Shown piece after piece: positions 28,621-64,000 of a DNA stretch of 64,000 bases; within the stretch, counting starts at the first letter, position 1, and the number at the start of each line of letters is the position of its first letter. This DNA is from a virus. The notes under the pieces are model-generated. The model searched no databases, had not been told where the DNA came from, and was given only the letters and a program-made list of their open reading frames with translations. A program made the position numbers and the translations under genes. Location: the IMG/VR virus record IMGVR_UViG_3300025158_000018; one strand, 5' to 3'.

Positions 28621-28644
28621 AATCACTGGTCCCGAACGGAGTAT

Positions 28645-30926: not shown

Positions 30927-30929
30927 AAA

Positions 30930-35291: not shown

Positions 35292-35713
35292 TCAAAGAAA
35301 TTATCTTAGCCGGAAATGTAATCGCATCTTCCGCAGAAAATTTAGTTGAATTAAATGGTTATTGGGAGAATTCGCAACACGCAGTATCAATCAATATTAC
35401 CAACACCAGCGGTGAAATTATATGGTATACAACCGGATTTACTGTCGGAGAAGATGTTTGGTACAATGGGGAACTTTATTACTCTGAATATATCAGCGCC
35501 TATTGTGCCGATCTAACTCCCGGAAACACCATTCTACCAACTGTACTGTACCCCGTTCCACCTCTAGGAACCATCTGTATGGATGTTATTGATGAAACTT
35601 TGATCATTGGTTACTCTGTTGAAATGAGGGATTTTGGGAATTGCTTGTTCATGACTTGGAATTCGCATATCCCCCGGAAATGCGGCGGTAATATGGACAT
35701 GTTTAGAAAATGA
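35288..35713 (+). CDS. hypothetical protein
   Basis: ORF. Confidence 0.45.
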   Translation: MIKEIILAGNVIASSAENLVELNGYWENSQHAVSINITNTSGEIIWYTTGFTVGEDVWYNGELYYSEYISAYCADLTPGNTILPTVLYPVPPLGTICMDVIDETLIIGYSVEMRDFGNCLFMTWNSHIPRKCGGNMDMFRK

Positions 35714-38297: not shown

Positions 38298-39485
38298 ATG
38301 AAGATAATTAAGCTATTCGAGGCGAAAGAACCAGACCTTTCATCCATCATCGGCCCGGATGTTAAAAAATTAGGTCGTATATTCAAAAATAATGGATACG
38401 AAATACGAATCGTAGGTGGTGCTGTGCGTGATGCTTTACTCGGAAAAACCCCCAAAGACATCGACCTAGCAACAACCGCTACCCCGGAAGAGATGGAAAA
38501 GATTGGGCGTGTAAACAACCTTAGAGTTGTTGATACCGGATCAGAACATGGAACATTAACTTTTGTTATAAATGATGAACCTTATGAAATAACCACTTTA
38601 AGAATTGACAAAGATACTGACGGTAGACATGCTGAAGTGGAATGGACTCGCGATTTTAAGGAAGACGCCAGAAGAAGGGATTTGACCTATAACGCTATGT
38701 CGGTGGATATGGACGGAAAACTTCATGATTACTTTGGTGGCCATGAAGACTTGAAGAACAAGCAAACCCGCTTTGTCGGCGACCCAGATGAAAGAATTCA
38801 AGAAGATTATCTCCGGATTCTTCGTTATTTCAGATTCTTGGCCAAACAAGAAGGACGAGCGTCAGACGAACAAACTTTACAATCTATTTCAAGAAATGTT
38901 GGAGGATTACGTAAAATATCGGCGGAAAGAATTTGGTCAGAGTTAAGTAAAATGGTAATACAACCAAATATGAAACAAGCATTCAAAGAAATGAAAAAAT
39001 GTGGCGTCCTAGGGGCCATTTCTATGCCAACAAGCAGTTCAGCAATACGGCACGGAGCCGAAGCTGCAAAACTGCCTGAGATTCGCCCAGAGGCGGTCAT
39101 AGCCACAATGTTGGACGCAACACCGTCGGAGACAATGAATTTCGTGTCGAGAATGAAAATGTCTAGACCAGAAGCCAATTTGATAAACTACATAGTGGCG
39201 CGGGAAAACGTAAAAGGTGTTTCTTTTCTTGATGAAATCTTTTTCAATGGAATTAAACCCGAAACTGTTCGTCAATATGGGTTGGCAGTTGGTGACAGTT
39301 CTGCTGTATCAGCGGCAAAAGCAGCAGAAAATGCTCCACCATTCCCCGTTTCTGGTGGAGATTTATTGAAACGGGGTTTTACACCCGGACCAGAATTAGG
39401 TAAAATGATCAATTCACTCAAAAAACAATGGGTGGACAGTGGATTCAAACTGAACAAAGAACAACTTTTAGGAAAATTGAAATGA
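38298..39485 (+). CDS. cca: tRNA nucleotidyltransferase (CCA-adding enzyme), class II head domain
   Basis: GGAVRD, DIDLAT, RRDLTYNAM motifs. Confidence 0.85.
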   Translation: MKIIKLFEAKEPDLSSIIGPDVKKLGRIFKNNGYEIRIVGGAVRDALLGKTPKDIDLATTATPEEMEKIGRVNNLRVVDTGSEHGTLTFVINDEPYEITTLRIDKDTDGRHAEVEWTRDFKEDARRRDLTYNAMSVDMDGKLHDYFGGHEDLKNKQTRFVGDPDERIQEDYLRILRYFRFLAKQEGRASDEQTLQSISRNVGGLRKISAERIWSELSKMVIQPNMKQAFKEMKKCGVLGAISMPTSSSAIRHGAEAAKLPEIRPEAVIATMLDATPSETMNFVSRMKMSRPEANLINYIVARENVKGVSFLDEIFFNGIKPETVRQYGLAVGDSSAVSAAKAAENAPPFPVSGGDLLKRGFTPGPELGKMINSLKKQWVDSGFKLNKEQLLGKLK

Positions 39486-42821: not shown

Positions 42822-43253
42822 TTAGTCAGTAAATACTTCGTTTTCTTTCTTGATCCTTTCCAAAATTCGACCAAGATGATTTTCCCCCTTCCCGCTTTCT
42901 ATATCAACCCCCCAAAAAGTATCTCCCCAACTGTTTCCTTCCACGATTGGCTCGTCTATTTGTGACAGTCTTTCGGCAAGTTCTGTATCAGAAAACTTGA
43001 TCTTGTTAAGATCATACATTATTTGTAGACTGATGTCAATCCAATCCGGGCGGACGTATTTACTGTACTTTCGAGATAGGCGTTTGGCCTTTCCCGGAGT
43101 ATTTGAATTAATTATCTTTTGCCGAATAGATGGGTCAGTAAACTTCAAAGCTTGGTAAGCATGCTCTGAGGTAAGATAGGTTACACCCTGAAATGTTATA
43201 GGATGCATATAAAAATTACTTAAAAAATCATATTTTCCCCTAAATTGCATCAT
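42822..43253 (-). CDS. NADAR (YbiA/DUF1768) domain protein
   Basis: FRGKYDFLSNFYMHPITFQGVTYLTSEHAYQALKF signature. Confidence 0.75.
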   Translation of the reverse strand: MMQFRGKYDFLSNFYMHPITFQGVTYLTSEHAYQALKFTDPSIRQKIINSNTPGKAKRLSRKYSKYVRPDWIDISLQIMYDLNKIKFSDTELAERLSQIDEPIVEGNSWGDTFWGVDIESGKGENHLGRILERIKKENEVFTD

Positions 43254-52428: not shown

Positions 52429-53133
52429 TCAAGTATCTTCGGACAATTTTATTTTAGTCTTTTTCTTAGTAGTTTTTTTTCTTCCACTGGATACCAATTT
52501 ACCATCCAAGGGGGTTTTGGGAGTAATGTCTTCTGTCTCAAGTAAAGAATTCTTCTCTCCAGCTTCTAAACGAGCAATAAGCTGGTCGGAATCCATCCAG
52601 ATATCTCGACCATCAACTACATGGTCGATCTCTTCTTCTGTAAGAATTTTCTCATAAAACTTTCTCATTATTTTTTCCACATAGCCGTTTACATGCTCTA
52701 CTCTCGTTCTAATTTCATGCCCCTTTCCGATTGCAAAACCGCCAGAATAGTTGTGTATCATAAAAGAACAATTCGGATTGATGATATACTCTTCCCCAGA
52801 TAAAAAAATCAAAGTCGCTGCAGAATGGGCATCTCCGTCTAAAGAAGTAATCACTTTGGCTCTAGATGCGACCATAGAGTTCACAATCTGTATTGCCATT
52901 CTAAGAGAACCGCCTTCACTGTTGATGTAAATTACTATAGTATCCTCTTCATTAGCGGTTTTTAACACATTGAGTAGGTCTGAATACTTGTTAATATCAT
53001 CCTCTATCTCTCCAGACAGATAAAAGTGGTGAACATTTAATTGCAAGCTTTGTACGTAATGCTTAATTTTTGGTGGATCAATCCTAAAAGAAGAACCATC
53101 CTCGAATCTTTCGTCAATTGCTTTATTTGACAT
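52429..53133 (-). CDS. ClpP-family (S14) serine protease homolog
   Basis: INSEGGSL and MIHNYSGG blocks; basic C-terminal tail. Confidence 0.65.
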   Translation of the reverse strand: MSNKAIDERFEDGSSFRIDPPKIKHYVQSLQLNVHHFYLSGEIEDDINKYSDLLNVLKTANEEDTIVIYINSEGGSLRMAIQIVNSMVASRAKVITSLDGDAHSAATLIFLSGEEYIINPNCSFMIHNYSGGFAIGKGHEIRTRVEHVNGYVEKIMRKFYEKILTEEEIDHVVDGRDIWMDSDQLIARLEAGEKNSLLETEDITPKTPLDGKLVSSGRKKTTKKKTKIKLSEDT

Positions 53134-53185
53134 GCATTGTTTCCTTTATTAAAAGAATCGTTTGTTCTATTTAGAACACGCGCTA

Positions 53186-55066
53186 TCAGATAACATCAAA
53201 ATCAGCAACATCGACCACAGGAATACCCAATTCTTTAGCTTTCTTCACTTTAGAGCTAGAAGACTTAACGCTTTTGGTAAGAACCATAGTTGTATTCTTA
53301 GAAACAGAAGTCGTGACCTTTCCACCGCGCTCCTCGATTTTTTCTTTCAATTCGTTATCCCTAAATCCTGTCATCACTATAGTTTGACCACCCATACTTT
53401 GCTCGGTCACCGACTTTTTTGTGAAAGTTATGTAGTCCTTGGTTCTATCCAAAAATATATTGAAGCGGCTTAATCCATCATAGATGCTTTCACATGTAGA
53501 ATTAAACCCTTCTAGTTTCTCGATATCTTCGAATGTAGCGTTTTTGAACTCTTCTAGGGTCATTTGTCCCAAAACCTTCTTCGCTTTTCGAACCCCGAAC
53601 CCTCTTCCAAAATAAGGGAGTGATCCCATTACCACTTCAGGTTTTACACTAGAGAGAATAGTATGTAAACTCAGAAACGCCTTTTTCCCATTTTCTCCCA
53701 ACGCTTGTCTCCACTCTTCATCCCATAACTCTATAATTGATACTACCAAATCGTCGAAGATTTTTTCACTCCATCCTTGATGTTCTATTAATTTTTCAAT
53801 AGAAGTTTCTTGTACGTTATCAACACCGAGAGTCTTAAAAAAGTGAACGGTCTCCATCAAAGTACGCTGGGAAGAGATTTCTTCCTTAGAGACAGCTTCA
53901 ACCCCGTTTTCATCCCAACTCCACGTGCCTTTGGGTGGCATGTCGGGGTGAACGGGTCTCGTTACCCCCATCACATACGGGATAACACTACCGGCGCGAG
54001 TGATTTTAATTTTGGCACCACTACCAATCCCATTGTCACGAATAAATCTTGCGTTGTGCCCCGTGGCGTAGGTTATAGTGGCCCCGTCTAACTCAACTTC
54101 TTCAAACTTGATTCTAGGTTTAAAAAAGTTAGACTTAGAAAGTTTCCAGATAACTTCTTTTACCTCTACTTCTTCAAACAGTGTTTGTACCTTAAACTTC
54201 ACAGAGTGTTCCGGGTTCAATGAATCTGAATCAGAGGTTTCCTTGAAATTAGAATAGTCATTGACTGTTACCACTACTCCGTCTAGTTCATACACGCCGG
54301 TTCTCTTGAATTCGGCCAACGTGTTTGCAAGTTTTTCGTCGGTCAGGTCACATCCTTTCATTTTCTCGTGACGAGCCACAGTGAAATCCATCTGCTTCAA
54401 ATGGTTTACGGTTTCTTCTTTCGTAAATACGTTACTAACTCCGGAAACATCGATAATCTCGTAGGCGACAAGATCAACATCTTGCACCATTTCCAGATTA
54501 GTTTCGTTTCTATTAAGAAAACCTGCAACTAAGTTTCTAGGATTCTTGTACTTTCTTTTATATTTGGCGTCAAATACCGAACGGCGCATTATTATTTCCG
54601 CCCGAACCGCCAGATAGTCACAACCGACGGTTTTGGGAATATCGACGATAGCTACAATATGACGAGTAACGTCATGGCCCAGAACACCATCACCCCGCGT
54701 GAACGCTTTGGACAGTTCGGCCTTGCCCCTCCCGTTGCTTTCGTACACCAAAAGAATGCTGGCCCCATCGAGCTTTTCTGTGACTACAACATCATTTTGA
54801 ATACAATCATACTTTTCAGCCCACTTTAACGCTTCACCCTCATAGACCTGATTTAAACTTCCCATAGAGTATGGGAGATGTACTTTCTCCAACGATGTTT
54901 CTTTAACGTGGGGGGCTTTTTTGAAATACTCATGTTCTGGAGAAATTTCCTCGGCTCTCCTACGAAGTGCGTCGTATTGGTCATCGGGGATCAGGGGTGA
55001 ACCCTTATAGTAAGCCTCGTCGAATTTTTGTAAATCTTGAATCGTTTTCTCGATATCGATAGTCAT
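53186..55066 (-). CDS. ligA: NAD+-dependent DNA ligase (LigA)
   Basis: N-terminal Ia YY..SP.I.D..YD, adenylation TEKLDGAS, C-terminal BRCT. Confidence 0.85.
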   Translation of the reverse strand: MTIDIEKTIQDLQKFDEAYYKGSPLIPDDQYDALRRRAEEISPEHEYFKKAPHVKETSLEKVHLPYSMGSLNQVYEGEALKWAEKYDCIQNDVVVTEKLDGASILLVYESNGRGKAELSKAFTRGDGVLGHDVTRHIVAIVDIPKTVGCDYLAVRAEIIMRRSVFDAKYKRKYKNPRNLVAGFLNRNETNLEMVQDVDLVAYEIIDVSGVSNVFTKEETVNHLKQMDFTVARHEKMKGCDLTDEKLANTLAEFKRTGVYELDGVVVTVNDYSNFKETSDSDSLNPEHSVKFKVQTLFEEVEVKEVIWKLSKSNFFKPRIKFEEVELDGATITYATGHNARFIRDNGIGSGAKIKITRAGSVIPYVMGVTRPVHPDMPPKGTWSWDENGVEAVSKEEISSQRTLMETVHFFKTLGVDNVQETSIEKLIEHQGWSEKIFDDLVVSIIELWDEEWRQALGENGKKAFLSLHTILSSVKPEVVMGSLPYFGRGFGVRKAKKVLGQMTLEEFKNATFEDIEKLEGFNSTCESIYDGLSRFNIFLDRTKDYITFTKKSVTEQSMGGQTIVMTGFRDNELKEKIEERGGKVTTSVSKNTTMVLTKSVKSSSSKVKKAKELGIPVVDVADFDVI

Positions 55067-55122
55067 TGTTAACCCTCAAGTAGATACGATATTATACAAC
55101 ATATCTACGTTAGAGTCAACGA

Positions 55123-55660
55123 TTATGAGCGCTTTTCTACCCAATTTGGATCAAGATCTTGCATATATTCTTTCGAAATTTTTAGTACAGTTCCGCCATA
55201 TTTGTTCGTCAACTTATCTAGATTTTCTTCGGACAAGTCGTCACCCACATTATAGGACAAAGTTACATGAGGGATGTACTCTGGAAAATCGTAAGTAGCG
55301 CCATGATCTAATGTGGTCTGGTGTTTATCTCTCAAGTAGTCTGAATCGAGGGCCGCTACCAAGCAGCGACCACCGTCTTTCGTATTAAAAATTTTAAATC
55401 CCTTGATTTTTTGCTTCTTTTGGTTCTTCGAGTTCTTCATCAGGCTGATAACCTTTAATGTCTGTTACACTATGGGCTATCGTAGAATGAAAATCTTCTG
55501 GGTTTGTTGGGTTCGGTATTTTGTCCCCGTCGATTATTTTTTTGATTTGTTCAACGGTTTCTGGGGTGAAATTTACCCCTACGTATTTCCCCACAGATAC
55601 ACCTAATTCTGAATCAGAACTAACTGGTCTCTTCGGATACTTCAATTCTCTCAATATCAT
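55123..55660 (-). pseudogene. 2H-phosphoesterase (LigT/ThpR-like) split by a +1 frameshift at an A6 run
   Basis: upstream ORF carries FHSTIAHS (H-x-T-x #1); downstream ORF in +1 frame carries PHVTLSY (H-x-T-x #2); frames meet at gcaaaaaatcaagg ~55395-55410; removing one A fuses them into ~170 aa. Confidence 0.5.
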
Positions 55661-55994
55661 TTGATTTCCTCGTATCTTTCATATGTTCGAGGTATTTATC
55701 AACCAATTCTCCGAGTATCTTTTTTATGTTAGTTTCTGATTCACTATGATGGATAATAGCTGATCGTTGTTCTCCATCATGATCAAACTTCATATACATC
55801 GAGCTGTGACAAGACACAGACACGTACCACTCTCCCCTACATAATGCAAACGATACAGTTAAATCTTCGTCGCCTAGTTTTTTAGCAAAATCCTCTAGGA
55901 TGTTATAAACGCTTTTAGTTTTCAATTTTATTCTCCCTGATCTCGATTTAAAATATACAATTCCACCATATGGGGGGTGCCATCTAACCCCCAT
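55620..55994 (-). CDS. hypothetical protein
   Basis: ORF; overlaps frd by 66 nt. Confidence 0.35.
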   Translation of the reverse strand: MGVRWHPPYGGIVYFKSRSGRIKLKTKSVYNILEDFAKKLGDEDLTVSFALCRGEWYVSVSCHSSMYMKFDHDGEQRSAIIHHSESETNIKKILGELVDKYLEHMKDTRKSNDIERIEVSEETS

Positions 55995-56494
55995 CCTGTT
56001 ACAACAGAAGCCTTTTCTGTATATGGTGTCATGTTAATGTGAACATCACAATCGTATGATCCCTTTACTCGCGTAACAACAATCTCGTCAAGAATATCGA
56101 AGAAAAGATCATACACACTCTTACCACCAATAACACAAACTTTGTCGAATTGGTGCAGTGGGGTGTAAGTAGAAGTAGAAGTAAGACGTATGATATCTTT
56201 TAATAAAACCCCATCCGACATGAAGTGAACTCCGGTGAAATTGCAATTATTTATGAGTTCATCGGGTCTTCGAGTCAAAACTATGCAAGTCCTTCCGGAC
56301 AAAAACGGTCCATCCTTGCTTTTTTTATGTAAACAGATATCGTTAAATGTGGTACTGCCCATTATGCACAAAGAATTCTTTGTGTATTCTCTAAAGTGTT
56401 TAAAGTCTTCTGGGATGTGCCAAGCCATTCTTCCATCTTTACCTATACCGTTTTCTTCATCTACGGCTACTATAGCCGCTATTCTTGGTTTCAT
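55928..56494 (-). CDS. frd: dihydrofolate reductase
   Basis: IAAIVAVDEENGIGKDGRMAWH, MGSTTF, VIGG. Confidence 0.85.
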   Translation of the reverse strand: MKPRIAAIVAVDEENGIGKDGRMAWHIPEDFKHFREYTKNSLCIMGSTTFNDICLHKKSKDGPFLSGRTCIVLTRRPDELINNCNFTGVHFMSDGVLLKDIIRLTSTSTYTPLHQFDKVCVIGGKSVYDLFFDILDEIVVTRVKGSYDCDVHINMTPYTEKASVVTGWGLDGTPHMVELYILNRDQGE

Positions 56495-56495
56495 A

Positions 56496-56753
56496 TTAGT
56501 TCTCTTCGTCCCTTGGTGTGCTTATCATGTACGTGTCTTGTGGAGAAACCCATCTATTGAACTCATCCCCAATGTTATACACTTCGCATATCTTTGGCTT
56601 GAGTTCAATCATAATAGAGCCTTTAGCATTTCGTGCTTCTCTTCCGGTGATTATAAATTCTTTACCGTCATAAACGCAATAGTCGTGGGGTTTGTTCATG
56701 TTTCCAAAGATACCTGTCGGGGTATGTATAAATATTCTCGAATAGCGATGCAA
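56496..56753 (-). CDS. hypothetical protein
   Basis: ORF directly upstream of frd. Confidence 0.4.
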   Translation of the reverse strand: MHRYSRIFIHTPTGIFGNMNKPHDYCVYDGKEFIITGREARNAKGSIMIELKPKICEVYNIGDEFNRWVSPQDTYMISTPRDEEN

Positions 56754-56865
56754 AAAACCACCGTATGGTAATTGCAGAAAAATCTTTTATTCAACTTTTC
56801 TACGAGGAATTCATCCTCAATCCTTTTTTTGACTCTAACCCATACCATCAGGAGATATCACAACG

Positions 56866-57603
56866 ATGAAAAAGTCTAAGAAAAAGAGCCTACATGTAGT
56901 TCAACACGACAACCTAGCTCGCCAAGAATATAACAACAACTGCAAATCACTCTCGTTCCACGACTTGAAGGCCATTAAACCCCTAACAACACCACAAAAA
57001 CAGATGATGGAATCTTATTTTTCCGGAAACTCTATCTTTGCATCCGGTTCTGCCGGGACGGGAAAAAGCTTGGTGGCGTTATATCTAGCATTGAACGATT
57101 TGTTGGACCGGGACCAACCTATTGAACACGTCAAGATAATTAGAAGTGTTGTACCGACCAGAGAAGTTGGATATTTGCCGGGTTCGATAGATGAAAAAAT
57201 TTCTGTATATGAAACCCCATATAGAGAATTGTTCTCGTTCTTGTTTGACATGCCAACGTCATACGACAAATTCAAGGAGAGTGGTAAAGTAGAATTCATG
57301 CCAACAAGTTTCTTGCGAGGACAAACGTGGGACAACTCTGTTATTGTTGTTGACGAAGTCCAAAACCTCAATTTCCACGAAGTCAATACTGTTATGACAC
57401 GAGTTGGTAGAAATAGTAAAATAATTCTGGTCGGCGACTCCAATCAATCTGATTTGTTCAAATCCAATAGGGATATATCATGTATTGAACGTCTAGACAA
57501 GGTTCTTTCTAATAACAACTTCTTTGACACCATATACTTCCAGAGACAAGACATAGTTCGAAGTGATTTTGTTAGAGCTTGGATTGAATGCATTGAAGAT
57601 TGA
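56866..57603 (+). CDS. phoH: PhoH-like ATPase
   Basis: Walker A GSAGTGKS, Walker B VVDEVQN, GD.NQ.D. Confidence 0.85.
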   Translation: MKKSKKKSLHVVQHDNLARQEYNNNCKSLSFHDLKAIKPLTTPQKQMMESYFSGNSIFASGSAGTGKSLVALYLALNDLLDRDQPIEHVKIIRSVVPTREVGYLPGSIDEKISVYETPYRELFSFLFDMPTSYDKFKESGKVEFMPTSFLRGQTWDNSVIVVDEVQNLNFHEVNTVMTRVGRNSKIILVGDSNQSDLFKSNRDISCIERLDKVLSNNNFFDTIYFQRQDIVRSDFVRAWIECIED

Positions 57604-57660
57604 CAAGTAGTCACAAAGTCTTGATAATGTCTCCTTAGTCTACAACTAAGGAGATTTATT
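57600..57660 (+). promoter_or_regulatory. sigma70-like promoter (TTGACA-17-GATAAT) plus 8-bp hairpin sequestering the mazG RBS
   Basis: ttgacaagtagtcacaaagtcttgataat; hairpin ctccttag-tctacaa-ctaaggag contains AAGGAG RBS 8 nt before ATG 57662. Confidence 0.4.
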
Positions 57661-57661
57661 T

Positions 57662-58246
57662 ATGGATTGGAAAGAATACATTGAGCAAGCAAAAATAACC
57701 GAATCACATATTGAAGAACTAAACATCAGTGCGGATTTTCTCGTAGCTGCGCTGACACTAAATCATATCAGTGCGGAAATACTGGATTGTGTAAAGAAAT
57801 TGGCATTTTACAACAACCCTAAAAAACTAGAAGAAAACATCAAAAATTTGTTGGTTCAATTGGAGTTAGAGCTATACACTCTTAAACATTATGAGTCAAC
57901 TCCTAGGTCCGCCTTATATGGAGAGGATGCAGTTAAGCCCGATGTTAATACTAGAATAGCACACTGTCTAATCGGGATGATCACAGAAGCCGGTGAGTTA
58001 TCAGAGGCTTTCGCAAAAGCAATTCATACCGGAGAGTTTGATGTGGTTAATCTTAAAGAAGAATTTTTTGACTCTGATTGGTATAAAGCTATTGGGTCTG
58101 ACGAAATGGGTATAGATTGGGGGGAGGGGTGGCAGAACAACATTGACAAACTGCGCTCCCGTTACAAGGGTTCTTACAGTGACGACGCCACAGCCAATAG
58201 AGATTTGAATGCCGAAAGACAAATCCTAGAAGGAAACAAACCATGA
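57662..58246 (+). CDS. mazG: MazG-like nucleoside triphosphate pyrophosphohydrolase
   Basis: AHCLIGMITEAGELSEAF, D..WY pattern. Confidence 0.7.
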   Translation: MDWKEYIEQAKITESHIEELNISADFLVAALTLNHISAEILDCVKKLAFYNNPKKLEENIKNLLVQLELELYTLKHYESTPRSALYGEDAVKPDVNTRIAHCLIGMITEAGELSEAFAKAIHTGEFDVVNLKEEFFDSDWYKAIGSDEMGIDWGEGWQNNIDKLRSRYKGSYSDDATANRDLNAERQILEGNKP

Positions 58247-58647
58247 ATGAGGCTCTTTTAATGCAAAAAATCCAAAATCCGGAAAGTAGGGTAAAATATT
58301 TAGAAGAAAAAATCAAACCCAACCGCCCGGTAGATAAATTTGGTAACAGAATGAGTTCTTACAATTTATCTAATACTGCTAAAATTTTAAAGATGACTTC
58401 GTGAGGTGATGAAATGAATAAAAACGAATACGAAACACTTAGCTACGATCCGGGAACCGGCAAATGGGAACCTGCTATCCCAGAGCCTTATTACTACGGT
58501 ATTTTTCCGTGGCTTTGGAAAAGAATCACGGGTTGGCGTGATGACTATGGGAGAAAAGCACAACTTTACTGGGACTGGTGGTGGTAAATAGTAGTTGACA
58601 CAATTCCTACGGTCTGTTAGAATACACACTCAAACAGGAGAATTACT

Positions 58648-58956
58648 ATGCAACACAATAGAATCAGAGACTTTTCTTTTTTGGAAAATCTAGTAGAGAA
58701 TAAGAAACACGCAGTAATCGACATAAGAAGTCCAGAAGACTATCGTTATGGAACTGTTCTAGAGGCCCCCAACGCCCCGCTGAGAGCTTTTCTTCGAGTT
58801 CTGGTAAAGGTACTCAAGAATACCAAGAAAGTAGTTCTTATTGCTTCTGAGAACGACACTGAGACGCTTGATGCATGTATTCGATATGCGACGCAAGCAG
58901 GTGGAATAGACTTGAATCTGAGCTATTTCTTTTACGAAGACGCACCGAAAGATTAA
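58648..58956 (+). CDS. hypothetical protein (weak rhodanese-like resemblance)
   Basis: ORF; AVIDIRSPEDYRYG. Confidence 0.35.
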   Translation: MQHNRIRDFSFLENLVENKKHAVIDIRSPEDYRYGTVLEAPNAPLRAFLRVLVKVLKNTKKVVLIASENDTETLDACIRYATQAGGIDLNLSYFFYEDAPKD

Positions 58957-58987
58957 GAAAAAGCCCCTTTCGGGGCTTTTCTTTTTA
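58957..58987. terminator. bidirectional rho-independent terminator
   Basis: aaaagcccc-tttc-ggggctttt flanked by T/A runs. Confidence 0.7.
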
Positions 58988-59332
58988 ATCTTCTTTATAA
59001 CCGGTTACTATCGTTGCCAACGGTGCGTTTAGCTTTACAGACAGAATTCCAATCAATCTACCCCACCTTGTTTTGTAACCTTCACTTTGGCCGATGACCT
59101 TGTTGTTCTTTGCCCTAAGCGTGAAGCGAAATTCTCCGGATTTGTCTCTAAATTTGACGAATGCTCCCTTTCTATCCGAATTAAACCTAACAGACTCAAT
59201 TCCTTTTTTAACAGATGCAGTAGATTTGTATAATTCCGAGAGCAATATCACTTTCCCGTTTCTAGCTTTCAACACGAAATATTCTTGACCATCTTTACTT
59301 CTTCTTATATCAAATTCTGGTTTTCTCAACAT
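58985..59332 (-). CDS. YegP/DUF1508 tandem-repeat protein
   Basis: two repeats GQEYFVLKARNGKVILLSELYKS and GEFRFTLRAKNNKVIGQSEGYKT; TATAAATA ~30 nt upstream. Confidence 0.6.
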   Translation of the reverse strand: MLRKPEFDIRRSKDGQEYFVLKARNGKVILLSELYKSTASVKKGIESVRFNSDRKGAFVKFRDKSGEFRFTLRAKNNKVIGQSEGYKTRWGRLIGILSVKLNAPLATIVTGYKED

Positions 59333-59387
59333 AACCTAACTAAACCTCGTGTTTACAAATAGTATTTATAGCTGATTTTGAAAAAAT

Positions 59388-59412
59388 GAAAGCCCCGCCT
59401 TGCGGGGCTTTC
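59388..59412 (-). terminator. rho-independent terminator after HNH gene
   Basis: gaaagccccgc-cttg-gcggggctttc with T-run on minus strand. Confidence 0.65.
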
Positions 59413-59530
59413 TAATTAAACCGGGTGATCAATCCCGGTCGCCTACGGCCTCGGAGGTTTCATAGGTCTTGCATCTGGATCACTACAAACGGAAGGTACC
59501 ATGTTCGTAGGAGAGCCAGTAAACTCAGTT

Positions 59531-60157
59531 CTAGTGTAAGAAGTAACCGTTTTCGATCATTTCATGGATACGACTATTCTTCGACACACCCTTGATCAAA
59601 TATTCCATCTGATCCGCTAGGATTCGGCGGTTCTGGAGAATAAGATGCTCGTTGTAATTTGGCACATATGGAACGTATACCAATGGCATTTTTGCTTCTC
59701 CGGGTGTTCTGTCGGCTTTCTTATGGTTACACTTCTTACAAGCAGTAACCAAGTTGGTCCAACTGTCTTCTCCACCCCGAGACTTAGGCACAACATGGTC
59801 ACGAGTTAAATCCGATCTAGGAAACAACTCTGAACAATAGCCACAAACATTACGGTCACGAATGAACAATGTCTTGTTGGTCAAAGGTGGTGTTCCTGAT
59901 CTCCACTTAGAAGGACTCATTTTAGCATCAACTGCTACAATAGTATCCATAACCAGTCTGGAACGCTGTCCCGTAACCGCATTAGTACCACCACGAAGAG
60001 TAACCTCGTGCTGTCCCAAACTCCACAATACTTTGTTCTTAGCGTAAAAGTATGCAGACTTTTCATAGTTGATCCAGCCCACGGGCTCACCACCCGCATT
60101 CAATTGTAGGATCAATGGTAACTGTTCAACGTTCAAAGCTTCAGTGTTCATATTCAA
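59531..60157 (-). CDS. HNH endonuclease
   Basis: CGYC..RDHVVPKSRGGEDSWTNLVTACKKCNHKK. Confidence 0.7.
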   Translation of the reverse strand: MNMNTEALNVEQLPLILQLNAGGEPVGWINYEKSAYFYAKNKVLWSLGQHEVTLRGGTNAVTGQRSRLVMDTIVAVDAKMSPSKWRSGTPPLTNKTLFIRDRNVCGYCSELFPRSDLTRDHVVPKSRGGEDSWTNLVTACKKCNHKKADRTPGEAKMPLVYVPYVPNYNEHLILQNRRILADQMEYLIKGVSKNSRIHEMIENGYFLH

Positions 60158-60663
60158 TTTCCTTTTATTACTTTATCAAAGCCTTCTTCTCTTGTCGGAT
60201 AAATGAAGCTATCCCTCATACTACTAAGTACATGTGGTGGGATGCTCTTCCCGGTTTCCTCTGCTCTTTTTGCCAAGCGTCTTTCAAGCTCCGCATCCTC
60301 TACATCAAAAACCACCGCCACTTTATAATATCTATCTGGAATCCCTTTAAGCTTCTTCTTTCTGCCTGTGGGCGCAACGTTGGTCTGATCCCAGACGATA
60401 TCTTTTCCACTCTCGATAGCCTTATTCAATTCTACATTCAAGTTTCTACTTGCATGCTTTATCTGCGACTGGAAAATTTCGTGATATGTCTTACCCATTT
60501 CGGAGGCTTTATCCTCAATATAATTGTCAGTACTAAGAATGACCGCATCTGGAGTGTTTTGTTTGATCCATGTACTTTTTCCAGCAGCGGGGAGCCCCAC
60601 CAACATAAACAAAATCGGTTGGTCACTGTAGTTCTCGTAAATTTGTCGCAGTTTCATTTCCAA
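60154..60663 (-). CDS. P-loop polynucleotide kinase-like protein (T4 Pnk kinase-domain-like, no phosphatase domain)
   Basis: Walker A LVGLPAAGKST, DQTN, basic lid RRLAKRAEETGKSIP. Confidence 0.6.
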   Translation of the reverse strand: MEMKLRQIYENYSDQPILFMLVGLPAAGKSTWIKQNTPDAVILSTDNYIEDKASEMGKTYHEIFQSQIKHASRNLNVELNKAIESGKDIVWDQTNVAPTGRKKKLKGIPDRYYKVAVVFDVEDAELERRLAKRAEETGKSIPPHVLSSMRDSFIYPTREEGFDKVIKGN

Positions 60664-60667
60664 TTCC

Positions 60668-60700
60668 TCAAATTAAAAGGGGAGCCGTATAGCTCCCCTC
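60668..60700 (-). terminator. rho-independent terminator after sHSP gene
   Basis: aggggagc-cgtat-agctcccct followed by TTTTAATTT on minus strand. Confidence 0.6.
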
Positions 60701-60716
60701 TAAGTTACACGAGAAA

Positions 60717-61223
60717 TTACCTAATGTCAAGTAATTTCGTTCGTTCTTCTTCGGGGATTTCTCGCCTGATACTAATCACTAGAAGGCCATCTCGCATTTC
60801 ACACGATTTTACCACAGAATACTGGGGGATGCTGAACGCCAATTTGAAGCCCCGCTTTCCAATACCCCTCTTCACGTATCTGTTTTTTGTGACTTCTGCG
60901 TCCTCTTTTTCCCCACCCTCGGTCTCACCGAACTTAGACCGAATCGTAAGTTTCTGATCTTTAAGGAATTCTACCTCTAGATCATCCTTACTGAATCCGG
61001 CTAGGGCAACTTCGATTCTGTAATCCCCGGTATTTTCACCATATTCGATATTATATGGAGGATAGCTTTGGCCGGAAAAAGGCTGATGGTCCCATAAATC
61101 ACTGATAAATCTCAGATTATTTGGATAATCTCTTGTGAAGCCATTGATCAGTTCTTGAAACGTCGAATCAATTGCGCTTCTTCTGGTTGCCAATTCATTT
61201 CGTCTGGTTGCTAATTTTGTCAT
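60717..61223 (-). CDS. small heat-shock protein (Hsp20/alpha-crystallin)
   Basis: YRIEVALAGFSKDDLEVEF..KLTIRSK; start taken at internal Met. Confidence 0.7.
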   Translation of the reverse strand: MTKLATRRNELATRRSAIDSTFQELINGFTRDYPNNLRFISDLWDHQPFSGQSYPPYNIEYGENTGDYRIEVALAGFSKDDLEVEFLKDQKLTIRSKFGETEGGEKEDAEVTKNRYVKRGIGKRGFKLAFSIPQYSVVKSCEMRDGLLVISIRREIPEEERTKLLDIR

Positions 61224-61330
61224 AATATTTCTCCTTTTTATAAGCAAGAATGTATAAAAGTGACCGACCTCACCATTGAGCATCGGTCACTCTTATTTAT
61301 AACAACTTAATTATTTTGTGTCAAGTCCTT

Positions 61331-62761
61331 TTACCAATTTGTTCGGGCGTTGGTGCGGACCTCTTCAAACGTCATATCCCGTACCAATTTTCCATTCAGG
61401 AATACCTCTTCCAGTAGTTCTATGTCTGTCGGAAGTTTCTCTTCCTCTCTAATGGTGATGGGTAGTCGGACACCGGATCGCTTAACTAATATAACCCGAC
61501 CCGCCTTAGAAGCCTTAGTGGGGTCAGTCTCAGTAGTTTTACATACTTCTCGAATTTCTCCATCAACTTCCACATACGAGCCCTTCATAGCAAAACGTAA
61601 CGTATCTCTCGTCAAATCTTGAAGCAAATATCCACCACACCCAAATGTAATATTATCTGCACTGAAGCCTGAGACCTTCATGGTCTTCAAAATATTTTCG
61701 ACTTCGGAGAGATTCACACCATCACCTTGAATGATTCTGACCGCTGGATTCAAAACTTTAAAACCCTTGTCATTTATAGTGTAGCCGTAAGAATCGGAAA
61801 GCTTGTTCAACGCAAGCATAACCATTTCTGTGGGATTTCCACTGTCTGGACGAATCACCACAGTACCACCCTTTTCTTCTATCTTTTCCCGAAGCTCTGC
61901 CCAAATATTAAGAGCGTTTTCGAACGAATAAGTGTCGCTAACTACAGAAACCATCTTACCCTCGCCACCGTATACATCAATGGCGCGCTCAAAAAACTTC
62001 TTCTCGTTGCCCGGACCTTCTGCAATAGTAACCGTGTGCTCCGTCGCCGGAATTGAAAACCCTGTTACAACCGGAGAATTATAGTACTCCATACAGGCGA
62101 GAATCCCAACAATATTGTCAGTTGCCATGAAATTGACCAAGTGTGCTGCACCAGCAATCTCACTCGACTGCTTAGAAGATGCCCCACGTGCCCCAAAATC
62201 AACAAACTTGAAGTCGATGAGGTCGGGGTCACCAGTTTCTTCCAAGTAACTGGAAATCAATTCCCGGAAACGATATGAGCGCGTTGCGACCGTAGTTCCG
62301 TACCACACGCCACGAAGCAAAGAGGTTTCCACATAGGAAGTGACCCACGCACAATTCTCATCGGTGTTCTCGACAACAACCATCACATTTCCTTCTGGTA
62401 CGTGCATTCCTTCTGGAACTGCGCGAATACTTAAAGGCAAAAACCCGTCACATTCGTTGACTATGTATTCCCAACCTTTCCGGTTGAATGGAAGACCGTG
62501 TGCTGTGATAACGGCTTCGGCCTGATTAACCATTTCCATCGTAACGGGCTTCATTAATGAGGTTTTGATTAAATGTTGAAGACCGAAGAATACTGAAGTG
62601 TCATACTCTCCACCCTTTCGAGCTTCAATATAAGAATACTGTCGGGTGGTTCCGGGTGCCATGAACCCAAAGTGGCTGGTCTTGTACGAGTCGCAATTCA
62701 ATATAGGATTGTTGCTTAATTTGTTCATGTTAAACTCCTTAATCATGTTTTTATAAAGCAA
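61331..62761 (-). CDS. nadV: nicotinamide phosphoribosyltransferase (NadV/NAMPT)
   Basis: N-terminal NCDSYKTSHF, size 476 aa, DFGARG, GDG family blocks. Confidence 0.8.
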   Translation of the reverse strand: MLYKNMIKEFNMNKLSNNPILNCDSYKTSHFGFMAPGTTRQYSYIEARKGGEYDTSVFFGLQHLIKTSLMKPVTMEMVNQAEAVITAHGLPFNRKGWEYIVNECDGFLPLSIRAVPEGMHVPEGNVMVVVENTDENCAWVTSYVETSLLRGVWYGTTVATRSYRFRELISSYLEETGDPDLIDFKFVDFGARGASSKQSSEIAGAAHLVNFMATDNIVGILACMEYYNSPVVTGFSIPATEHTVTIAEGPGNEKKFFERAIDVYGGEGKMVSVVSDTYSFENALNIWAELREKIEEKGGTVVIRPDSGNPTEMVMLALNKLSDSYGYTINDKGFKVLNPAVRIIQGDGVNLSEVENILKTMKVSGFSADNITFGCGGYLLQDLTRDTLRFAMKGSYVEVDGEIREVCKTTETDPTKASKAGRVILVKRSGVRLPITIREEEKLPTDIELLEEVFLNGKLVRDMTFEEVRTNARTNW

Positions 62762-62787
62762 AAGATTCTATGCCCATCATAAAATCT

Positions 62788-63513
62788 TTATTTCCAATAA
62801 TAATTGGAAAATTTTTTGGATGAAGATAACGCAACCCTGTAGTATAATTTGTGAACATTAATACCGAGTTGTCTGGATGCTTCTCGTAGTGATGGATATT
62901 CTTTACCATCTATAATCACTTTTTTTGACTTTCCATTTTTTTCGTTCATTTGTTTTCCTTTATGAGATTCACTCATTTTTTTTCTAGCTTCTTCTGTCGT
63001 TTTTCTTCCAACGAGGGCATCTCGTATTTTTTTCTTATGTTCTGGTGTTCTATTAAGGGCCATTGTTTTTAACCTTTTTCGTTCATGGGGTGTTTGACAT
63101 TTGGCTATAGCTATCCTAGACATTTTCTTTTTTGTTTCTTTTGTATGTTTTCTACCATGCCAATGATGGTTTTCACCCAACAGTAATCCCCCATCCCCAT
63201 ATAATATATTTTTTACCTTTTCATACATTTTACTGTTGGTTACTCTCTCTTCATGATATTTACTTTTAGCTCTCATAGGCATGAATGCTTGAAGTACTTT
63301 CGTGTAATTTTCTACATTATTTTTATGAATATCTATCAACAAGCGGTGACATATATAGTGTTCTCTTGCTGTTAAATAAACTAAATTTTCATTTACATCC
63401 AAACCTCCCAAACACTTTGGAATTATATGATGTTTTTCATAGTACGTGTTAACATCCAGTTTTCTTTCTAAAGCTTTATCAATAATTGAATCATAAACAT
63501 TTTTATAGTTCAT
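62788..63513 (-). mobile_element. free-standing HNH homing endonuclease with NUMOD3 repeats and C-terminal HTH, between nadV and the Nudix gene
   Basis: HHIIPKCLGG..NLVYLTAREH HNH; three HTKETKKKMS / TPEHKKKIRDA / TEEARKKMSESHKGK repeats; IIDGKEYPSLREASRQLGI. Confidence 0.7.
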
Positions 63514-63589
63514 GCGAAATACCTAATCATTTCTATCAGGTATTTATATTAGATACCTATCCGTGTTTAGATTTATATTAGTACTGGTC

Positions 63590-64000
63590 TCACTCCATTG
63601 AATCAATGAAATAATTTGCAATGTCATAATGGTCTTCAAACATTTGGTTCCTCATTACCTTAAATTCACTAATTGGGAACCACCATGCGGCACCACCCTT
63701 GACTTCACTAGCATCAGAGGCCCCAACGACCTTGGGCAGTTTATGGCCGTCGTTCAATGAAAAGCAATAAGCCATTGTAACTGTTCTACCACGCTTGGTA
63801 TGAACCCTGCCACGCAAAGAACGATCAGGGTGATCGAAGAACTTTGAATCGACCATACTCCCTCTAAGAACCTTTTCTGGAACCTTTAGAGAGGTCTCTT
63901 CCTTAAGCTCTCTGATCGCCGCGTCGAATGTTGTCTCGGTAGAGTTTACGTGGCCACCCGGAAGTGCCCAAAGCCCCTTACCGGGCCTCTCAGCCCGTCT
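63590..64000 (-). CDS. Nudix hydrolase, 5'-truncated by window edge
   Basis: Nudix box GGHVNSTETTFDAAIRELKEETSL in the frame extending past the listed ORF to the window end. Confidence 0.7.
   Translation of the reverse strand, partial: RRAERPGKGLWALPGGHVNSTETTFDAAIRELKEETSLKVPEKVLRGSMVDSKFFDHPDRSLRGRVHTKRGRTVTMAYCFSLNDGHKLPKVVGASDASEVKGGAAWWFPISEFKVMRNQMFEDHYDIANYFIDSME

What the first reader, a model, noticed from the sequence alone, without database searches (positions are those of the whole stretch)
61331..64000. NAD+ salvage pair (NadV + Nudix) split by a homing endonuclease, in the same genome as a NAD-dependent DNA ligase
NadV and a Nudix hydrolase that runs off the window edge form a KVP40-type NAD+ regeneration route (Nampt + Nmnat). 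The phage also encodes a NAD+-dependent LigA (53186..55066) instead of the ATP-dependent T4 ligase, and several NAD/ADP-ribose enzymes. An HNH-NUMOD endonuclease sits exactly between the two salvage genes, suggesting a recent homing insertion.
Basis: partly seen in the sequence, partly recalled or inferred. Interest (0 to 1): 0.5.

Follow-up and report, generated by a model that had tools for sequence, protein, structure and literature searches.

The report
Phage NAD+ rebuilding genes, endonuclease inserted
A large uncultured phage carries the known two-gene pathway that rebuilds NAD+ (a counter-measure to bacterial NAD+-destroying defences), and a selfish homing-endonuclease gene has settled between the two genes; this is a new example of known things, with a small new observation that this endonuclease lineage always sits next to that gene.

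Summary
On the minus strand lie nadV (61331..62728; Nampt), a 241-aa HNH/NUMOD3 endonuclease gene (62788..63513) and the Nudix end of a gene cut by the window edge (63590..64000). Metagenome contigs 99.99% identical to the window supply the missing part. The pair matches the KVP40-type pathway now called NARP2.

Four syntenic relatives (NadV 71-87% identical) have natV followed directly by nadV, with a 62-67 nt spacer and no endonuclease. The gene is therefore a lineage-specific insertion.

New here:
- All four nearest homologues of the endonuclease (43-49% identical) also sit immediately upstream of nadV, in very different phages.
- All five copies share a leader with a T4-type late-promoter box and a hairpin over the ribosome-binding site or start codon, the I-TevI/MobE design.

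"Recent" is not shown. The insert is present in every population contig read, no close donor is sampled, and its low GC content is a trait of the whole endonuclease lineage. LigA, NADAR and a Macro domain are confirmed in the window. Verdict: a new member of known kinds, of modest interest.

The parts
63590..64000 (-). 3' part of natV: the Nudix (ADP-ribose pyrophosphatase) domain of a bifunctional NadM-type NMN adenylyltransferase/Nudix protein. The gene continues about 690 nt beyond the window edge. The full protein is 366 aa (L004:4171-5271).
   Evidence: The frame is open to the window edge and hits NUDIX at E 6e-15. Contig L004 is 99.991% identical to the window over 11,213 nt and gives a 366-aa ORF with CTP_transf_like and NUDIX domains. 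That ORF aligns over its full length to PDB 2QJO and 2QJT at E 1e-69 and 2e-62, with GRFQPPHRGH, STDIR and the Nudix box REL-KEE conserved.
63514..63589 (-). Leader of the endonuclease cassette. It holds a T4-type late-promoter box TATAAATA (63541..63548) and an 11-bp hairpin (63517..63545). The 5' arm of the hairpin starts inside the box and the 3' arm covers the AGG ribosome-binding site.
   Evidence: TATAAATA occurs 14 times in the window against 3.85 expected, with 0 of 100 shuffles reaching 14, and mostly lies just upstream of ORF starts. The hairpin folds at -9.7 kcal/mol, z -3.6. The same box-plus-hairpin design precedes the four homologous endonuclease genes in L009, L025, L026 and L027.
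62788..63513 (-). Free-standing Mob-type homing endonuclease gene (241 aa). It has an N-terminal HNH nuclease, central NUMOD3 repeats and a C-terminal I-TevI-type DNA-binding domain.
   Evidence: It hits Pfam NUMOD3 and PHROG 655 at E 1e-37. The family profile hits the I-TevI DNA-binding domain 1I3J at E 3.6e-5 and the McrA HNH region at E 1.2e-3. It is 31-36% identical to T-even Mob enzymes, and its DNA hit falls on the gene between nrdA and nrdB, the mobE position. It has the lowest GC content of 71 ORFs in the window, 31.0% against 40.2 +/- 3.9. It is absent from four syntenic relatives.
62729..62787 (-). Spacer between the endonuclease stop codon and the nadV start codon. It contains the nadV Shine-Dalgarno sequence AAGGAG (62735..62740). 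Its last ~35 nt can be aligned with the 3' part of the ancestral natV-nadV spacer.
   Evidence: Sequence and alignment A1 with the endonuclease-free relatives.
61331..62728 (-). nadV, encoding nicotinamide phosphoribosyltransferase (Nampt), 465 aa. It carries no intein.
   Evidence: It has NAMPT_N and NAPRTase domains and scores 548 bits on NF006629 against a 405-bit cut-off. It matches PDB 7YQO at E 5e-113 and human NAMPT at E 1e-101. It is about 42% identical to the NadV of KVP40-group vibriophages. The motifs DSYK, DFGARG, AAHLVNF, RPDSG, QGDG, GCGG and TRD are invariant in alignment A3.
53186..55066 (-). NAD+-dependent DNA ligase (LigA-like, 626 aa). This is context: a phage-encoded NAD+ consumer.
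   Evidence: It has DNA_ligase_aden, OB_DNA_ligase and BRCT domains and hits TIGR00575 at E 1e-68, 232 bits, below the 444-bit cut-off. It is 38-40% identical to LigA of the jumbo phages XacN1 and Xoo-sp13, which also carry the closest NatV among deposited phages, and NadV.
42822..43253 (-). NADAR-domain protein. This is context: ADP-ribose processing.
   Evidence: Pfam NADAR at E 6e-24, 85.6 bits against a cut-off of 35.1.
35710..36183 (+). Macro-domain protein. This is context and the hit is weak.
   Evidence: Pfam Macro at E 2.5e-5, 24.6 bits against a cut-off of 22.

Best explanation
The region is a NARP2-type NAD+ reconstitution module of a large uncultured myovirus-like phage that carries rIIA/rIIB. 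A selfish gene has been inserted between its two genes.

How the pathway works (inferred from homology to characterised enzymes):
- NadV makes NMN from nicotinamide and PRPP.
- The N-terminal domain of NatV adenylylates NMN to NAD+.
- The C-terminal Nudix domain of NatV hydrolyses ADP-ribose or NAD(H)-type substrates. This recycles the other product of NADase defence systems and tunes NAD+ levels.
- The rebuilt NAD+ supplies the phage's own NAD+-dependent ligase and counteracts NAD+-depleting defences.

The insert (shown by comparison): a Mob-type free-standing HNH homing-endonuclease cassette lies in the natV-nadV spacer. It replaced a conserved stem-loop that endonuclease-free relatives have at that spot.

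How the insert probably works (inferred from the T4 paradigm):
- The cassette brings its own late promoter.
- A hairpin masks its ribosome-binding site on read-through transcripts coming from natV. The enzyme would therefore be made only late in infection.
- In co-infections it would cut the nadV/natV region of endonuclease-free relatives, and repair would copy the cassette in.

The endonuclease lineage is specifically associated with the 5' side of nadV.
For: The pathway:
- Gene identities are supported.
- The sequence beyond the window edge comes from contigs 99.88-99.99% identical to the window. natV is an intact 366-aa ORF in all seven variants checked.
- KVP40 Nampt + Nmnat were shown to make NAD+, to abolish type I Thoeris and DSR2 defence, and were named NARP2. 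In that study 94% of phages with this Nampt also encode Nmnat (bioRxiv 10.1101/2024.02.11.579819).
- NadM always co-occurs with NadV in phages (PMC9503650).

The insertion:
- L017 (NadV 87% identical), L019/L020 (78%), L113 (72%) and L021 (71%) are syntenic. In each, natV is followed by nadV after a 62-67 nt spacer with no endonuclease gene.
- Their spacer holds an 11-bp hairpin in which 7 pairs covary. The window lacks this hairpin.

Link between the endonuclease lineage and nadV:
- The four nearest homologues (43-49% identical) all lie 9-40 nt upstream of a nadV gene, in phages whose NadV is only 40-50% identical.
- None of 80 loci holding more distant relatives of the endonuclease has nadV or natV within 3 kb.

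Regulation: TATAAATA plus a hairpin that sequesters the RBS or AUG is found in all five cassettes, with different stem sequences and z-scores of -2.0 to -3.6. This matches the design of I-TevI, segB and Aeh1 mobE (PMC2988022).

Mob family behaviour: T4 MobE sits between nrdA and nrdB, nicks nrdB of T2 and is inherited at high frequency (PMC2790892).
Against: - No activity has been measured for any of the three proteins.
- NatV scores below the NCBIfam equivalog cut-offs (315 bits against 354-449), so it is a divergent member of its family.
- Pfam's HNH models do not hit the endonuclease directly. The HNH assignment rests on motif conservation and weak profile matches.
- No cleavage site is known.
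- No co-conversion tract is detectable. The NadV N-terminus is still closest to endonuclease-free L017.
- The endonuclease genes are about as divergent from one another (39-50%) as the adjacent NadV proteins are (40-50%). This also fits long vertical co-descent with losses.
- Late-promoter use by this phage is inferred only from motif enrichment and position.
Confidence: 0.85

Rival explanations
1. The endonuclease gene is an old, vertically inherited resident of the natV-nadV junction, possibly domesticated. It was lost several times from relatives and was not acquired by homing in this lineage.
For: - Divergence among the five endonucleases (39-50%) equals that of the adjacent NadV proteins (40-50%).
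- The gene is present in all 24 population contigs read.
- There is no near-identical donor copy in 5.8 billion protein clusters. The next best hit is 49% identical.
- No co-conversion signal is seen.
- HEG-free L113 carries the rare Cys codon seen in four of five endonuclease-bearing nadV genes. This could be a footprint of a past occupant.
Against: - Within the 71-87% NadV clade, only the window carries the gene. Vertical descent would need up to four independent losses, each restoring a 62-67 nt spacer.
- All four endonuclease-free spacers are homologous and share a covarying hairpin. This argues that the empty site is ancestral for that clade.
Confidence: 0.2
2. The natV-nadV pair serves mainly to boost NAD+ for phage metabolism, for example the NAD+-dependent ligase and nucleotide synthesis. 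Its main role is not counter-defence.
For: - The genome encodes LigA.
- The closest LigA homologues are in XacN1 and Xoo-sp13, jumbo phages that also carry NatV and NadV.
- NARP2 raised NAD+ even in cells without a defence system.
Against: - NARP2 genes abolished Thoeris and DSR2 defence experimentally.
- The window is rich in other counter-defence and repair genes: Acb1, NADAR, Macro, SAM lyase, two RNA ligases and a CCA-adding enzyme.
- The two roles do not exclude each other.
Confidence: 0.3
3. The endonuclease ORF is an inactive remnant that no longer moves.
For: - Pfam HNH models give no direct hit.
- The gene appears fixed in the population, so no empty sites are left to invade.
Against: - The ORF is a full-length 241 aa with all HNH motif residues invariant across the family.
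- NUMOD3 and the I-TevI-type DNA-binding domain are retained.
- The promoter-hairpin leader is conserved with compensatory stem changes in five loci.
- The protein sequence is identical in at least 24 contigs.
Confidence: 0.15
4. NadV is a NARP1-type Namat that joins nicotinamide to ADPR-PP. It is not a Nampt that uses PRPP.
For: Namat and Nampt are homologous. KVP40 Nampt shows some activity on ADPR-PP.
Against: - NadV co-occurs with, and lies next to, a NadM-type Nmnat. That is the NARP2 signature, and no phage was found with both pathways.
- No PRPS-like Adps gene was seen among the window's annotated ORFs.
- NadV is about 42% identical to KVP40-group Nampt over its full length, and matches bacterial and human NAMPT structures at E 1e-113 and 1e-101.
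Confidence: 0.04

Closest known systems
NARP2 of Vibrio phage KVP40 (NadV/Nampt + NatV/Nmnat-Nudix)
   Same: It has the same two enzymes with the same domain architectures. NadV has NAMPT_N and NAPRTase domains. NatV has a HIGH-type NMNAT domain fused to a Nudix domain. The window's NadV is about 42% identical to KVP40-group NadV, and its Nudix domain is about 49% identical to that of KVP40 NatV.
   Different: - In KVP40-group genomes the two genes lie about 42 kb apart (VH7D: 29.6 kb and 72.1 kb). Here they are neighbours, separated only by the endonuclease cassette.
- The proteins are closer to those of the jumbo phages Xoo-sp13, XacN1 and RsoM2USA (NatV Nudix domain 52-58% identical, NadV 43-54%).
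- No activity has been tested here.
NadM-Nudix of Synechocystis slr0787 and Francisella tularensis (PDB 2QJO, 2QJT)
   Same: Full-length alignment at E 1e-69 and 2e-62. The HxGH motif (HRGH), the SSTxIR-like motif (STDIR) and the Nudix box are conserved.
   Different: - There are two short insertions in the Nudix domain (RVHTKRG and SEVKGG).
- Pro replaces Phe in GRFQP(F/P)H.
- The score is below the NCBIfam equivalog cut-offs.
T4 and Aeh1 MobE, and the Mob family of free-standing HNH homing endonucleases
   Same: - An HNH N-terminal domain with NUMOD3 repeats, about 230-245 aa long.
- It is inserted in the spacer between two conserved genes of one metabolic pathway (nrdA/nrdB there, natV/nadV here).
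- Its distribution among relatives is patchy.
- A late promoter plus an RBS-sequestering hairpin, as described for Aeh1 mobE and I-TevI.
   Different: - Only 31-36% identical.
- It occupies a different insertion locus.
- T4 mobE itself has no promoter and carries an internal terminator. This cassette has its own late-promoter box, and no terminator-like site was found on its strand within the gene.
- Target site and activity are unknown.
XacN1 / Xoo-sp13 / RsoM2USA group of jumbo phages
   Same: These are the deposited phages with the best matches: XacN1 and Xoo-sp13 for NatV and LigA, and RsoM2USA for NadV. natV lies upstream of nadV on the same strand.
   Different: Protein identity is only 38-58% and there is no DNA-level match. 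In those phages 3.6-4.6 kb of hypothetical genes separates natV from nadV.

Membership tests
NARP2 (phage Nampt + Nmnat NAD+ reconstitution pathway) | A Nampt-clade nicotinamide phosphoribosyltransferase with NAMPT_N and NAPRTase domains | tested here: met
   Pfam hits at E 2e-23 and 5e-42. NF006629 scores 548 bits against a cut-off of 405. PDB NAMPT structures match at E 1e-113 and 1e-101. Catalytic motifs are invariant in A3; the mapping to human residue numbers is from memory.
NARP2 (phage Nampt + Nmnat NAD+ reconstitution pathway) | An NMN adenylyltransferase encoded in the same genome | tested here: met
   The domain lies beyond the window edge. It was read from contigs 99.88-99.99% identical to the window. 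CTP_transf_like hits at E 4.5e-12, and the HRGH and STDIR motifs align to 2QJO and 2QJT.
NARP2 (phage Nampt + Nmnat NAD+ reconstitution pathway) | No NARP1 Adps (PRPS-like) partner gene | tested here: inconclusive
   No PRPS-like domain was found among the window ORFs that were annotated. The window is only 64 kb of a genome of at least 257 kb.
NARP2 (phage Nampt + Nmnat NAD+ reconstitution pathway) | NAD+ synthesis from nicotinamide, PRPP and ATP, and rescue from NAD+-depleting defence systems | not testable with these tools
   This needs biochemistry and infection assays. It has been shown for the KVP40 genes only.
NadM-Nudix bifunctional NMNAT / ADP-ribose pyrophosphatase | An N-terminal HIGH-type nucleotidyltransferase fused to a C-terminal Nudix domain with a Nudix box | tested here: met
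   Domain order is given. The full-length alignment to 2QJO includes GGHVNSTETTFDAAIRELKEETSL.
NadM-Nudix bifunctional NMNAT / ADP-ribose pyrophosphatase | A score above the NCBIfam PRK05379 equivalog cut-offs | tested here: not met
   The best model, NF003791, scores 315.5 bits against a cut-off of 409. NF003788 scores 296.7 against 354. The protein is a divergent member; its architecture and motifs are intact.
Mob-type free-standing HNH homing endonucleases | An HNH (beta-beta-alpha-metal) catalytic motif | tested here: met
   The residues in EKHHIIPK...N...EHxxxH (H28, H29, N43, H52, H56) are invariant in 8 family members. The family profile matches the McrA HNH region at E 1.2e-3. PHROG HNH families hit at E 2.5e-6. 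There is no direct hit to Pfam PF01844.
Mob-type free-standing HNH homing endonucleases | A modular DNA-binding region (NUMOD3 repeats and/or an I-TevI-type helix-turn-helix) | tested here: met
   NUMOD3 hits at E 7e-10 in two stretches. The family profile hits the I-TevI DNA-binding domain 1I3J at E 3.6e-5.
Mob-type free-standing HNH homing endonucleases | Location in an intergenic spacer between conserved genes, with presence/absence polymorphism among relatives | tested here: met
   The gene is present here and absent from four syntenic relatives that keep a 62-67 nt spacer. Homologues occupy the same site in four distant phages.
Mob-type free-standing HNH homing endonucleases | Site-specific cleavage of the endonuclease-free allele and super-Mendelian inheritance | not testable with these tools
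   This needs in vitro cleavage mapping or mixed-infection crosses. The only sequence lead is a TGY (Cys) codon before DSYK in four of five endonuclease-bearing nadV genes, against 6 of 120 in the background. Endonuclease-free L113 also has it.
NAD+-dependent DNA ligase (LigA) | An adenylation domain with the NAD+-specific N-terminal region, an OB fold and a BRCT domain | tested here: met
   DNA_ligase_aden, OB_DNA_ligase and BRCT domains are present. TIGR00575 aligns over residues 10-621 at E 1e-68, but the 232-bit score is below the 444-bit cut-off.

The most novel reading that the evidence does not exclude
The endonuclease belongs to a previously undescribed lineage of Mob-like homing endonucleases that specialises on the NARP2 locus.

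- The mobile unit would be a conserved cassette: a late promoter, a hairpin that masks the RBS or AUG, and the ORF.
- Its target would lie in the 5' end of nadV or the 3' end of natV.
- In co-infections it would cut endonuclease-free competitors within a counter-defence gene.
- That cut would drive gene conversion of the whole natV-nadV region. The effects would be marker exclusion, spread of particular NARP2 alleles, and possibly trans-mobilisation of the inteins found in nadV of related phages.
Probability: 0.35. Interest if true: 0.45.

Novelty: new member of a known kind. Interest (0 to 1): 0.3.

Why it matters
NAD+ depletion is one of the commonest outcomes of bacterial anti-phage defence, and NARP2 is one of the few known phage pathways that reverse it. 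This locus adds a divergent NARP2 module from an uncultured phage whose longest contig is 257 kb. The same genome carries an NAD+-dependent ligase, NADAR, Macro and Acb1.

It also shows that the natV-nadV junction is a recurrent landing site. Across 65 viral-contig loci with natV upstream of nadV, 28 have the two genes directly adjacent. Another 35 carry inserted genes, including NADAR, a deoxyribosyltransferase-like gene and Mob-like endonucleases.

If the endonuclease really targets nadV, selfish elements would be shaping how counter-defence alleles spread between competing phages. That is testable, but it extends known T4 biology and is not a new principle.

Tried and rejected
- **DNA search of deposited phages.** Megablast found nothing. 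Sensitive blastn found only an 82-nt HNH-motif match to the T-even gene at the mobE position and a natV match to Xoo-sp13. No close cultured relative exists.
- **First exact-protein look-up of NadV.** It used a start two codons too short and found nothing. It was corrected to ATG 62728.
- **The 308-aa natV call in L005.** I suspected a truncated allele. It is only a different start call; the ORF is intact.
- **GC content as evidence for a recent arrival.** Rejected. The gene has the lowest GC content in the window, but all five nadV-linked endonuclease genes are 11-16 GC points below their nadV. The composition is a lineage trait.
- **Co-conversion test.** Sliding nucleotide and protein identity of natV and nadV against endonuclease-free and endonuclease-bearing relatives shows no donor-like tract next to the insert. 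At about 75% nucleotide identity the test has little power.
- **Cys codon before DSYK as a marker of the target site.** It is enriched in endonuclease-bearing loci (4 of 5 against 6 of 120), but it also occurs in endonuclease-free L113 and is absent from L027, L154, L123 and L193. I keep it only as a lead.
- **Metagenome scan with NadV.** It returned only five loci and nothing new.
- **Sigma-70 promoter and terminator scan.** Counts were not above chance.
- **The commonest ORF inserted between natV and nadV in viral contigs (about 155 aa, 22 loci).** I guessed it was a Macro domain, but Pfam gave no hit.
- **Structure prediction.** Not run, because sequence matches to solved structures were already decisive for NadV and NatV.
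Full report
**1. The observation**

- The Nampt gene is listed as 61331..62761. It most probably starts at ATG 62728 (465 aa), behind an AAGGAG Shine-Dalgarno sequence. This is also the commonest gene call in metagenome copies.
- It has NAMPT_N and NAPRTase domains. It exceeds the curated NCBIfam cut-off for PRK09198 (548 against 405 bits).
- It aligns end to end with Xanthomonas and human NAMPT structures (E 5e-113 and about 1e-101).
- The 241-aa ORF at 62788..63513 has NUMOD3 repeats and matches PHROG 655 'homing endonuclease' at E 1e-37.
- The frame 63590..64000 is open to the window edge and is a Nudix domain. Its best PHROG match is to the C-terminal third of the NatV-like family phrog_395. 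All its tblastn hits in deposited phages fall in genes annotated as bifunctional NMNAT/Nudix, including KVP40 natV.

**2. Beyond the window edge**

An exact-protein look-up of the endonuclease found the same phage in dozens of metagenome assemblies (58 index blocks; the cluster's longest contig is 256,834 nt).
- Six of these contigs are 99.88-99.99% identical to window 52788..64000. L004 differs at 1 of 11,213 positions.
- In all of them the truncated ORF is a 366-aa gene with a cytidylyltransferase-like (HIGH nucleotidyltransferase) domain followed by the Nudix domain.
- It aligns over its full length to the solved NadM-Nudix enzymes of Synechocystis (2QJO, E 1e-69) and Francisella (2QJT, E 2e-62). 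GRFQPPHRGH, STDIR and the Nudix box are conserved.
- It scores below NCBIfam's equivalog cut-offs (315 against 409 bits), so it is a divergent member.
- The shorter 308-aa call in L005 is only a different start choice.

**3. What the pair is**

Nampt plus NadM-type Nmnat is the pathway first characterised in vibriophage KVP40.
- It has since been named NARP2. The two KVP40 genes abolish type I Thoeris and DSR2 defence and raise NAD+ during infection. In that study 94% of phages with this Nampt also encode Nmnat, and NARP2 occurs in about 1.1% of sequenced phages (bioRxiv 10.1101/2024.02.11.579819).
- A survey of viral NAD+/ADP-ribose systems reports that every NadM-bearing phage also has NadV. 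It also reports that NADAR genes occur near them, and that NAD+-dependent ligases are found in about 32% of jumbo phages (PMC9503650).
- The window's NadV is about 42% identical to KVP40-group NadV. Its NatV Nudix domain is 52-58% identical to those of the jumbo phages Xoo-sp13 and XacN1.
- Those same phages hold the closest LigA homologues, at 38-40%. The combination of LigA, NatV and NadV therefore already exists in cultured phages.

The mechanism is inferred from homology, not tested here:
- nicotinamide + PRPP gives NMN (NadV);
- NMN + ATP gives NAD+ (NatV N-domain);
- ADP-ribose or NAD(H) is hydrolysed by the Nudix domain.

**4. Context in the window**

- LigA at 53186..55066 is confirmed.
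- A NADAR protein (42822..43253) and a weak Macro domain (35710..36183) are present.
- Also present are Acb1, a SAM-lyase-like protein, two RNA ligases, a CCA-adding enzyme, rIIA/rIIB, PhoH, DHFR and ClpP.

'Several NAD/ADP-ribose enzymes' is thus fair. 'Instead of the ATP-dependent ligase' cannot be judged from 64 kb.

**5. The endonuclease is an insertion**

Four syntenic relatives were recovered through NadV homologues: L017 (87% identical NadV), L019/L020 (78%), L113 (72%) and L021 (71%).
- All have natV followed directly by nadV, with a 62-67 nt spacer and no endonuclease gene.
- Their spacers are homologous. They contain an 11-bp stem-loop just after the natV stop codon, with compensatory changes in 7 pairs.
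- In the window this stem-loop is gone. Only the last ~35 nt before the nadV start can still be aligned.

Within this 71-87% clade only the window carries the gene.

**6. What kind of endonuclease**

- The HNH residues (HH...N...H...H) are invariant in an alignment of eight family members.
- The family profile hits the I-TevI DNA-binding domain (1I3J, E 3.6e-5) and the McrA HNH region (E 1.2e-3).
- The protein is 31-36% identical to Mob-type enzymes of T4-like phages.
- Its only DNA-level similarity to cultured phages falls on the homing endonuclease gene between nrdA and nrdB of T-even phages, which is the mobE position.
- T4 MobE is a free-standing HNH homing endonuclease. It nicks nrdB of T2 and is inherited at high frequency (PMC2790892). 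Free-standing endonucleases typically sit in spacers between conserved genes and cut at a distance in a flanking gene (PMC2988022).

**7. A nadV-associated lineage (new here)**

- Outside its own cluster, the nearest homologues among 5.8 billion protein clusters are only 43-49% identical.
- All four whose context could be read lie 9-40 nt upstream of a nadV gene. In L009 and L027 natV sits directly upstream of the endonuclease. In L025 four small ORFs lie between natV and the endonuclease.
- The NadV proteins of those loci are only 40-50% identical to the window's and to each other.
- As a control, none of 80 viral-contig loci holding more distant relatives of the endonuclease has nadV or natV within 3 kb.
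- Among 80 further nadV loci from viral contigs, three more carry a Mob-like gene directly upstream of nadV: L154, L123 and L193.

In the 65 loci where natV lies upstream of nadV on the same strand:
- 28 have the two genes directly adjacent (47-115 nt apart);
- 35 have at least 650 nt of inserted genes. These include an unknown ~155-aa ORF (22 loci), NADAR, a deoxyribosyltransferase-like gene, radical-SAM and ATP-grasp genes, and endonucleases.

The junction is a recurrent insertion site.

**8. Regulation (inferred)**

- TATAAATA, the T4 late-promoter consensus, occurs 14 times in the window against 3.85 expected (0 of 100 shuffles reach 14). It mostly lies just upstream of ORF starts, including the endonuclease gene (63541..63548, 28 nt before the ATG).
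- An 11-bp hairpin (63517..63545; -9.7 kcal/mol, z -3.6) starts inside the box and pairs with the AGG ribosome-binding site.
- The four homologous cassettes have the same layout with different stem sequences: the box, then a 9-11 bp hairpin that encloses the Shine-Dalgarno sequence and/or the AUG (z -2.0 to -3.2).
- This is the arrangement described for I-TevI, segB and Aeh1 mobE. There, read-through early transcripts fold and block translation, while late transcripts start inside the stem and are translated (PMC2988022).
- No terminator-like site above chance lies between natV, the endonuclease gene and nadV. nadV keeps its own Shine-Dalgarno sequence.

**9. Is the insertion recent?**

For:
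- it is absent from the four nearest relatives;
- it has the lowest GC content of 71 ORFs (31.0% against 40.2 +/- 3.9; its neighbours are at 45%).

Against:
- all 24 contigs read that carry this NadV also carry the gene, so it appears fixed in the sampled population;
- no close donor is sampled;
- all five nadV-linked endonuclease genes are 11-16 GC points below their nadV, so composition does not date the event;
- no co-conversion tract is visible, although the test has little power at about 75% nucleotide identity;
- divergence among the endonucleases equals that among the NadV proteins.

The insertion post-dates the split from the L017 lineage. Nothing shows that it is recent in any stricter sense.

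**10. Verdict**

The pathway (NARP2) and the type of selfish element (Mob-like free-standing homing endonuclease) are both well known, so this is a new member of known kinds. The modest additions are:
- the specific association of one endonuclease lineage with nadV;
- its conserved promoter-hairpin leader;
- the picture of the natV-nadV junction as an insertion hot spot.

Interest 0.3.

Noticed in passing
window 55123..55660 (minus strand): The anti-CBASS gene acb1 is split into two overlapping ORFs. ORF 55394..55660 covers Pfam Acb1 profile positions 2-52 and ORF 55123..55440 covers positions 52-143. A +1 frame change is needed near the A-run in GCAAAAAATCAAGGG. The split is identical in six independent assemblies, whereas relative L021 has an intact 180-aa Acb1. 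Whether this is a pseudogene or a recoding event is unresolved.
   Followed up: partly
NadV homologues P0013 (789 aa), P0039 (780 aa) and P0010 (621 aa), found: Related phage NadV proteins (roughly 60-75% identical over shared parts, by eye from the alignment) carry an intein between FSIPA and (S/T)EH. The intein starts with CYD and ends with ..GN|S. Two are full-size and one is a mini-intein. P0013 has a weak LAGLIDADG_3 hit. The window's NadV has no intein. nadV is thus targeted by two kinds of selfish element.
   Followed up: partly
L017:5937-6000, L019:5934-6000, L021:5939-6000, L113:3635-3700: Endonuclease-free relatives have a conserved 11-bp stem-loop right after the natV stop codon. 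Its loop contains AATTC, and 7 pairs show compensatory changes in 4 sequences. It may be a terminator, a processing site or a regulatory element. It is missing in the window.
   Followed up: partly
window, 14 sites, e.g. 4392..4399, 14076..14083, 59363..59370, 61294..61301, 63541..63548: TATAAATA, the T4 late-promoter consensus, is enriched 3.6-fold and sits just upstream of many ORF starts. These include two other HNH genes (3741..4370 and 13414..14049, both about 35% GC), Hsp20 and DUF1508. This suggests T4-like late transcription in this phage.
   Followed up: partly
window 59531..60157 (minus strand): A second HNH protein (HNH_5, 208 aa, 43.5% GC) next to an AAA_33 kinase is conserved at the same position in L019/L020, L021, L113 and distant L009. 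It is a stable resident gene, not a recent homing element.
   Followed up: partly
L117-L145 and other IMG/VR nadV loci, between natV and nadV: In 22 viral contigs a conserved ~155-aa ORF (MLKHTKGNLLDLAEAGEFDVVVQGCNCFNTMGGGIA...) lies between natV and nadV. It has no Pfam hit. Its position suggests an unrecognised accessory gene of the NAD+/ADP-ribose module.
   Followed up: partly
window 363..9639 and 38298..39485: The window holds a dense RNA-repair and counter-defence set: an Rnl2-like and a T4 Rnl1-like RNA ligase, a HAD_SAK_2 phosphatase, a SAM-lyase-like protein, an HD_4 protein and a CCA-adding/poly(A) polymerase-family enzyme.
   Followed up: no
L017:7444-12647: The closest relative (NadV 87% identical) has five extra genes (203, 132, 239, 468 and 642 aa, no Pfam hits) between nadV and hsp20. 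The window has none there. This is another indel hot spot next to the module.
   Followed up: no
window 27700..31000: A run of small same-strand ORFs has unusually low GC content (32-35%) compared with the window mean of 40%. None has a Pfam hit in the precomputed gene tables.
   Followed up: no
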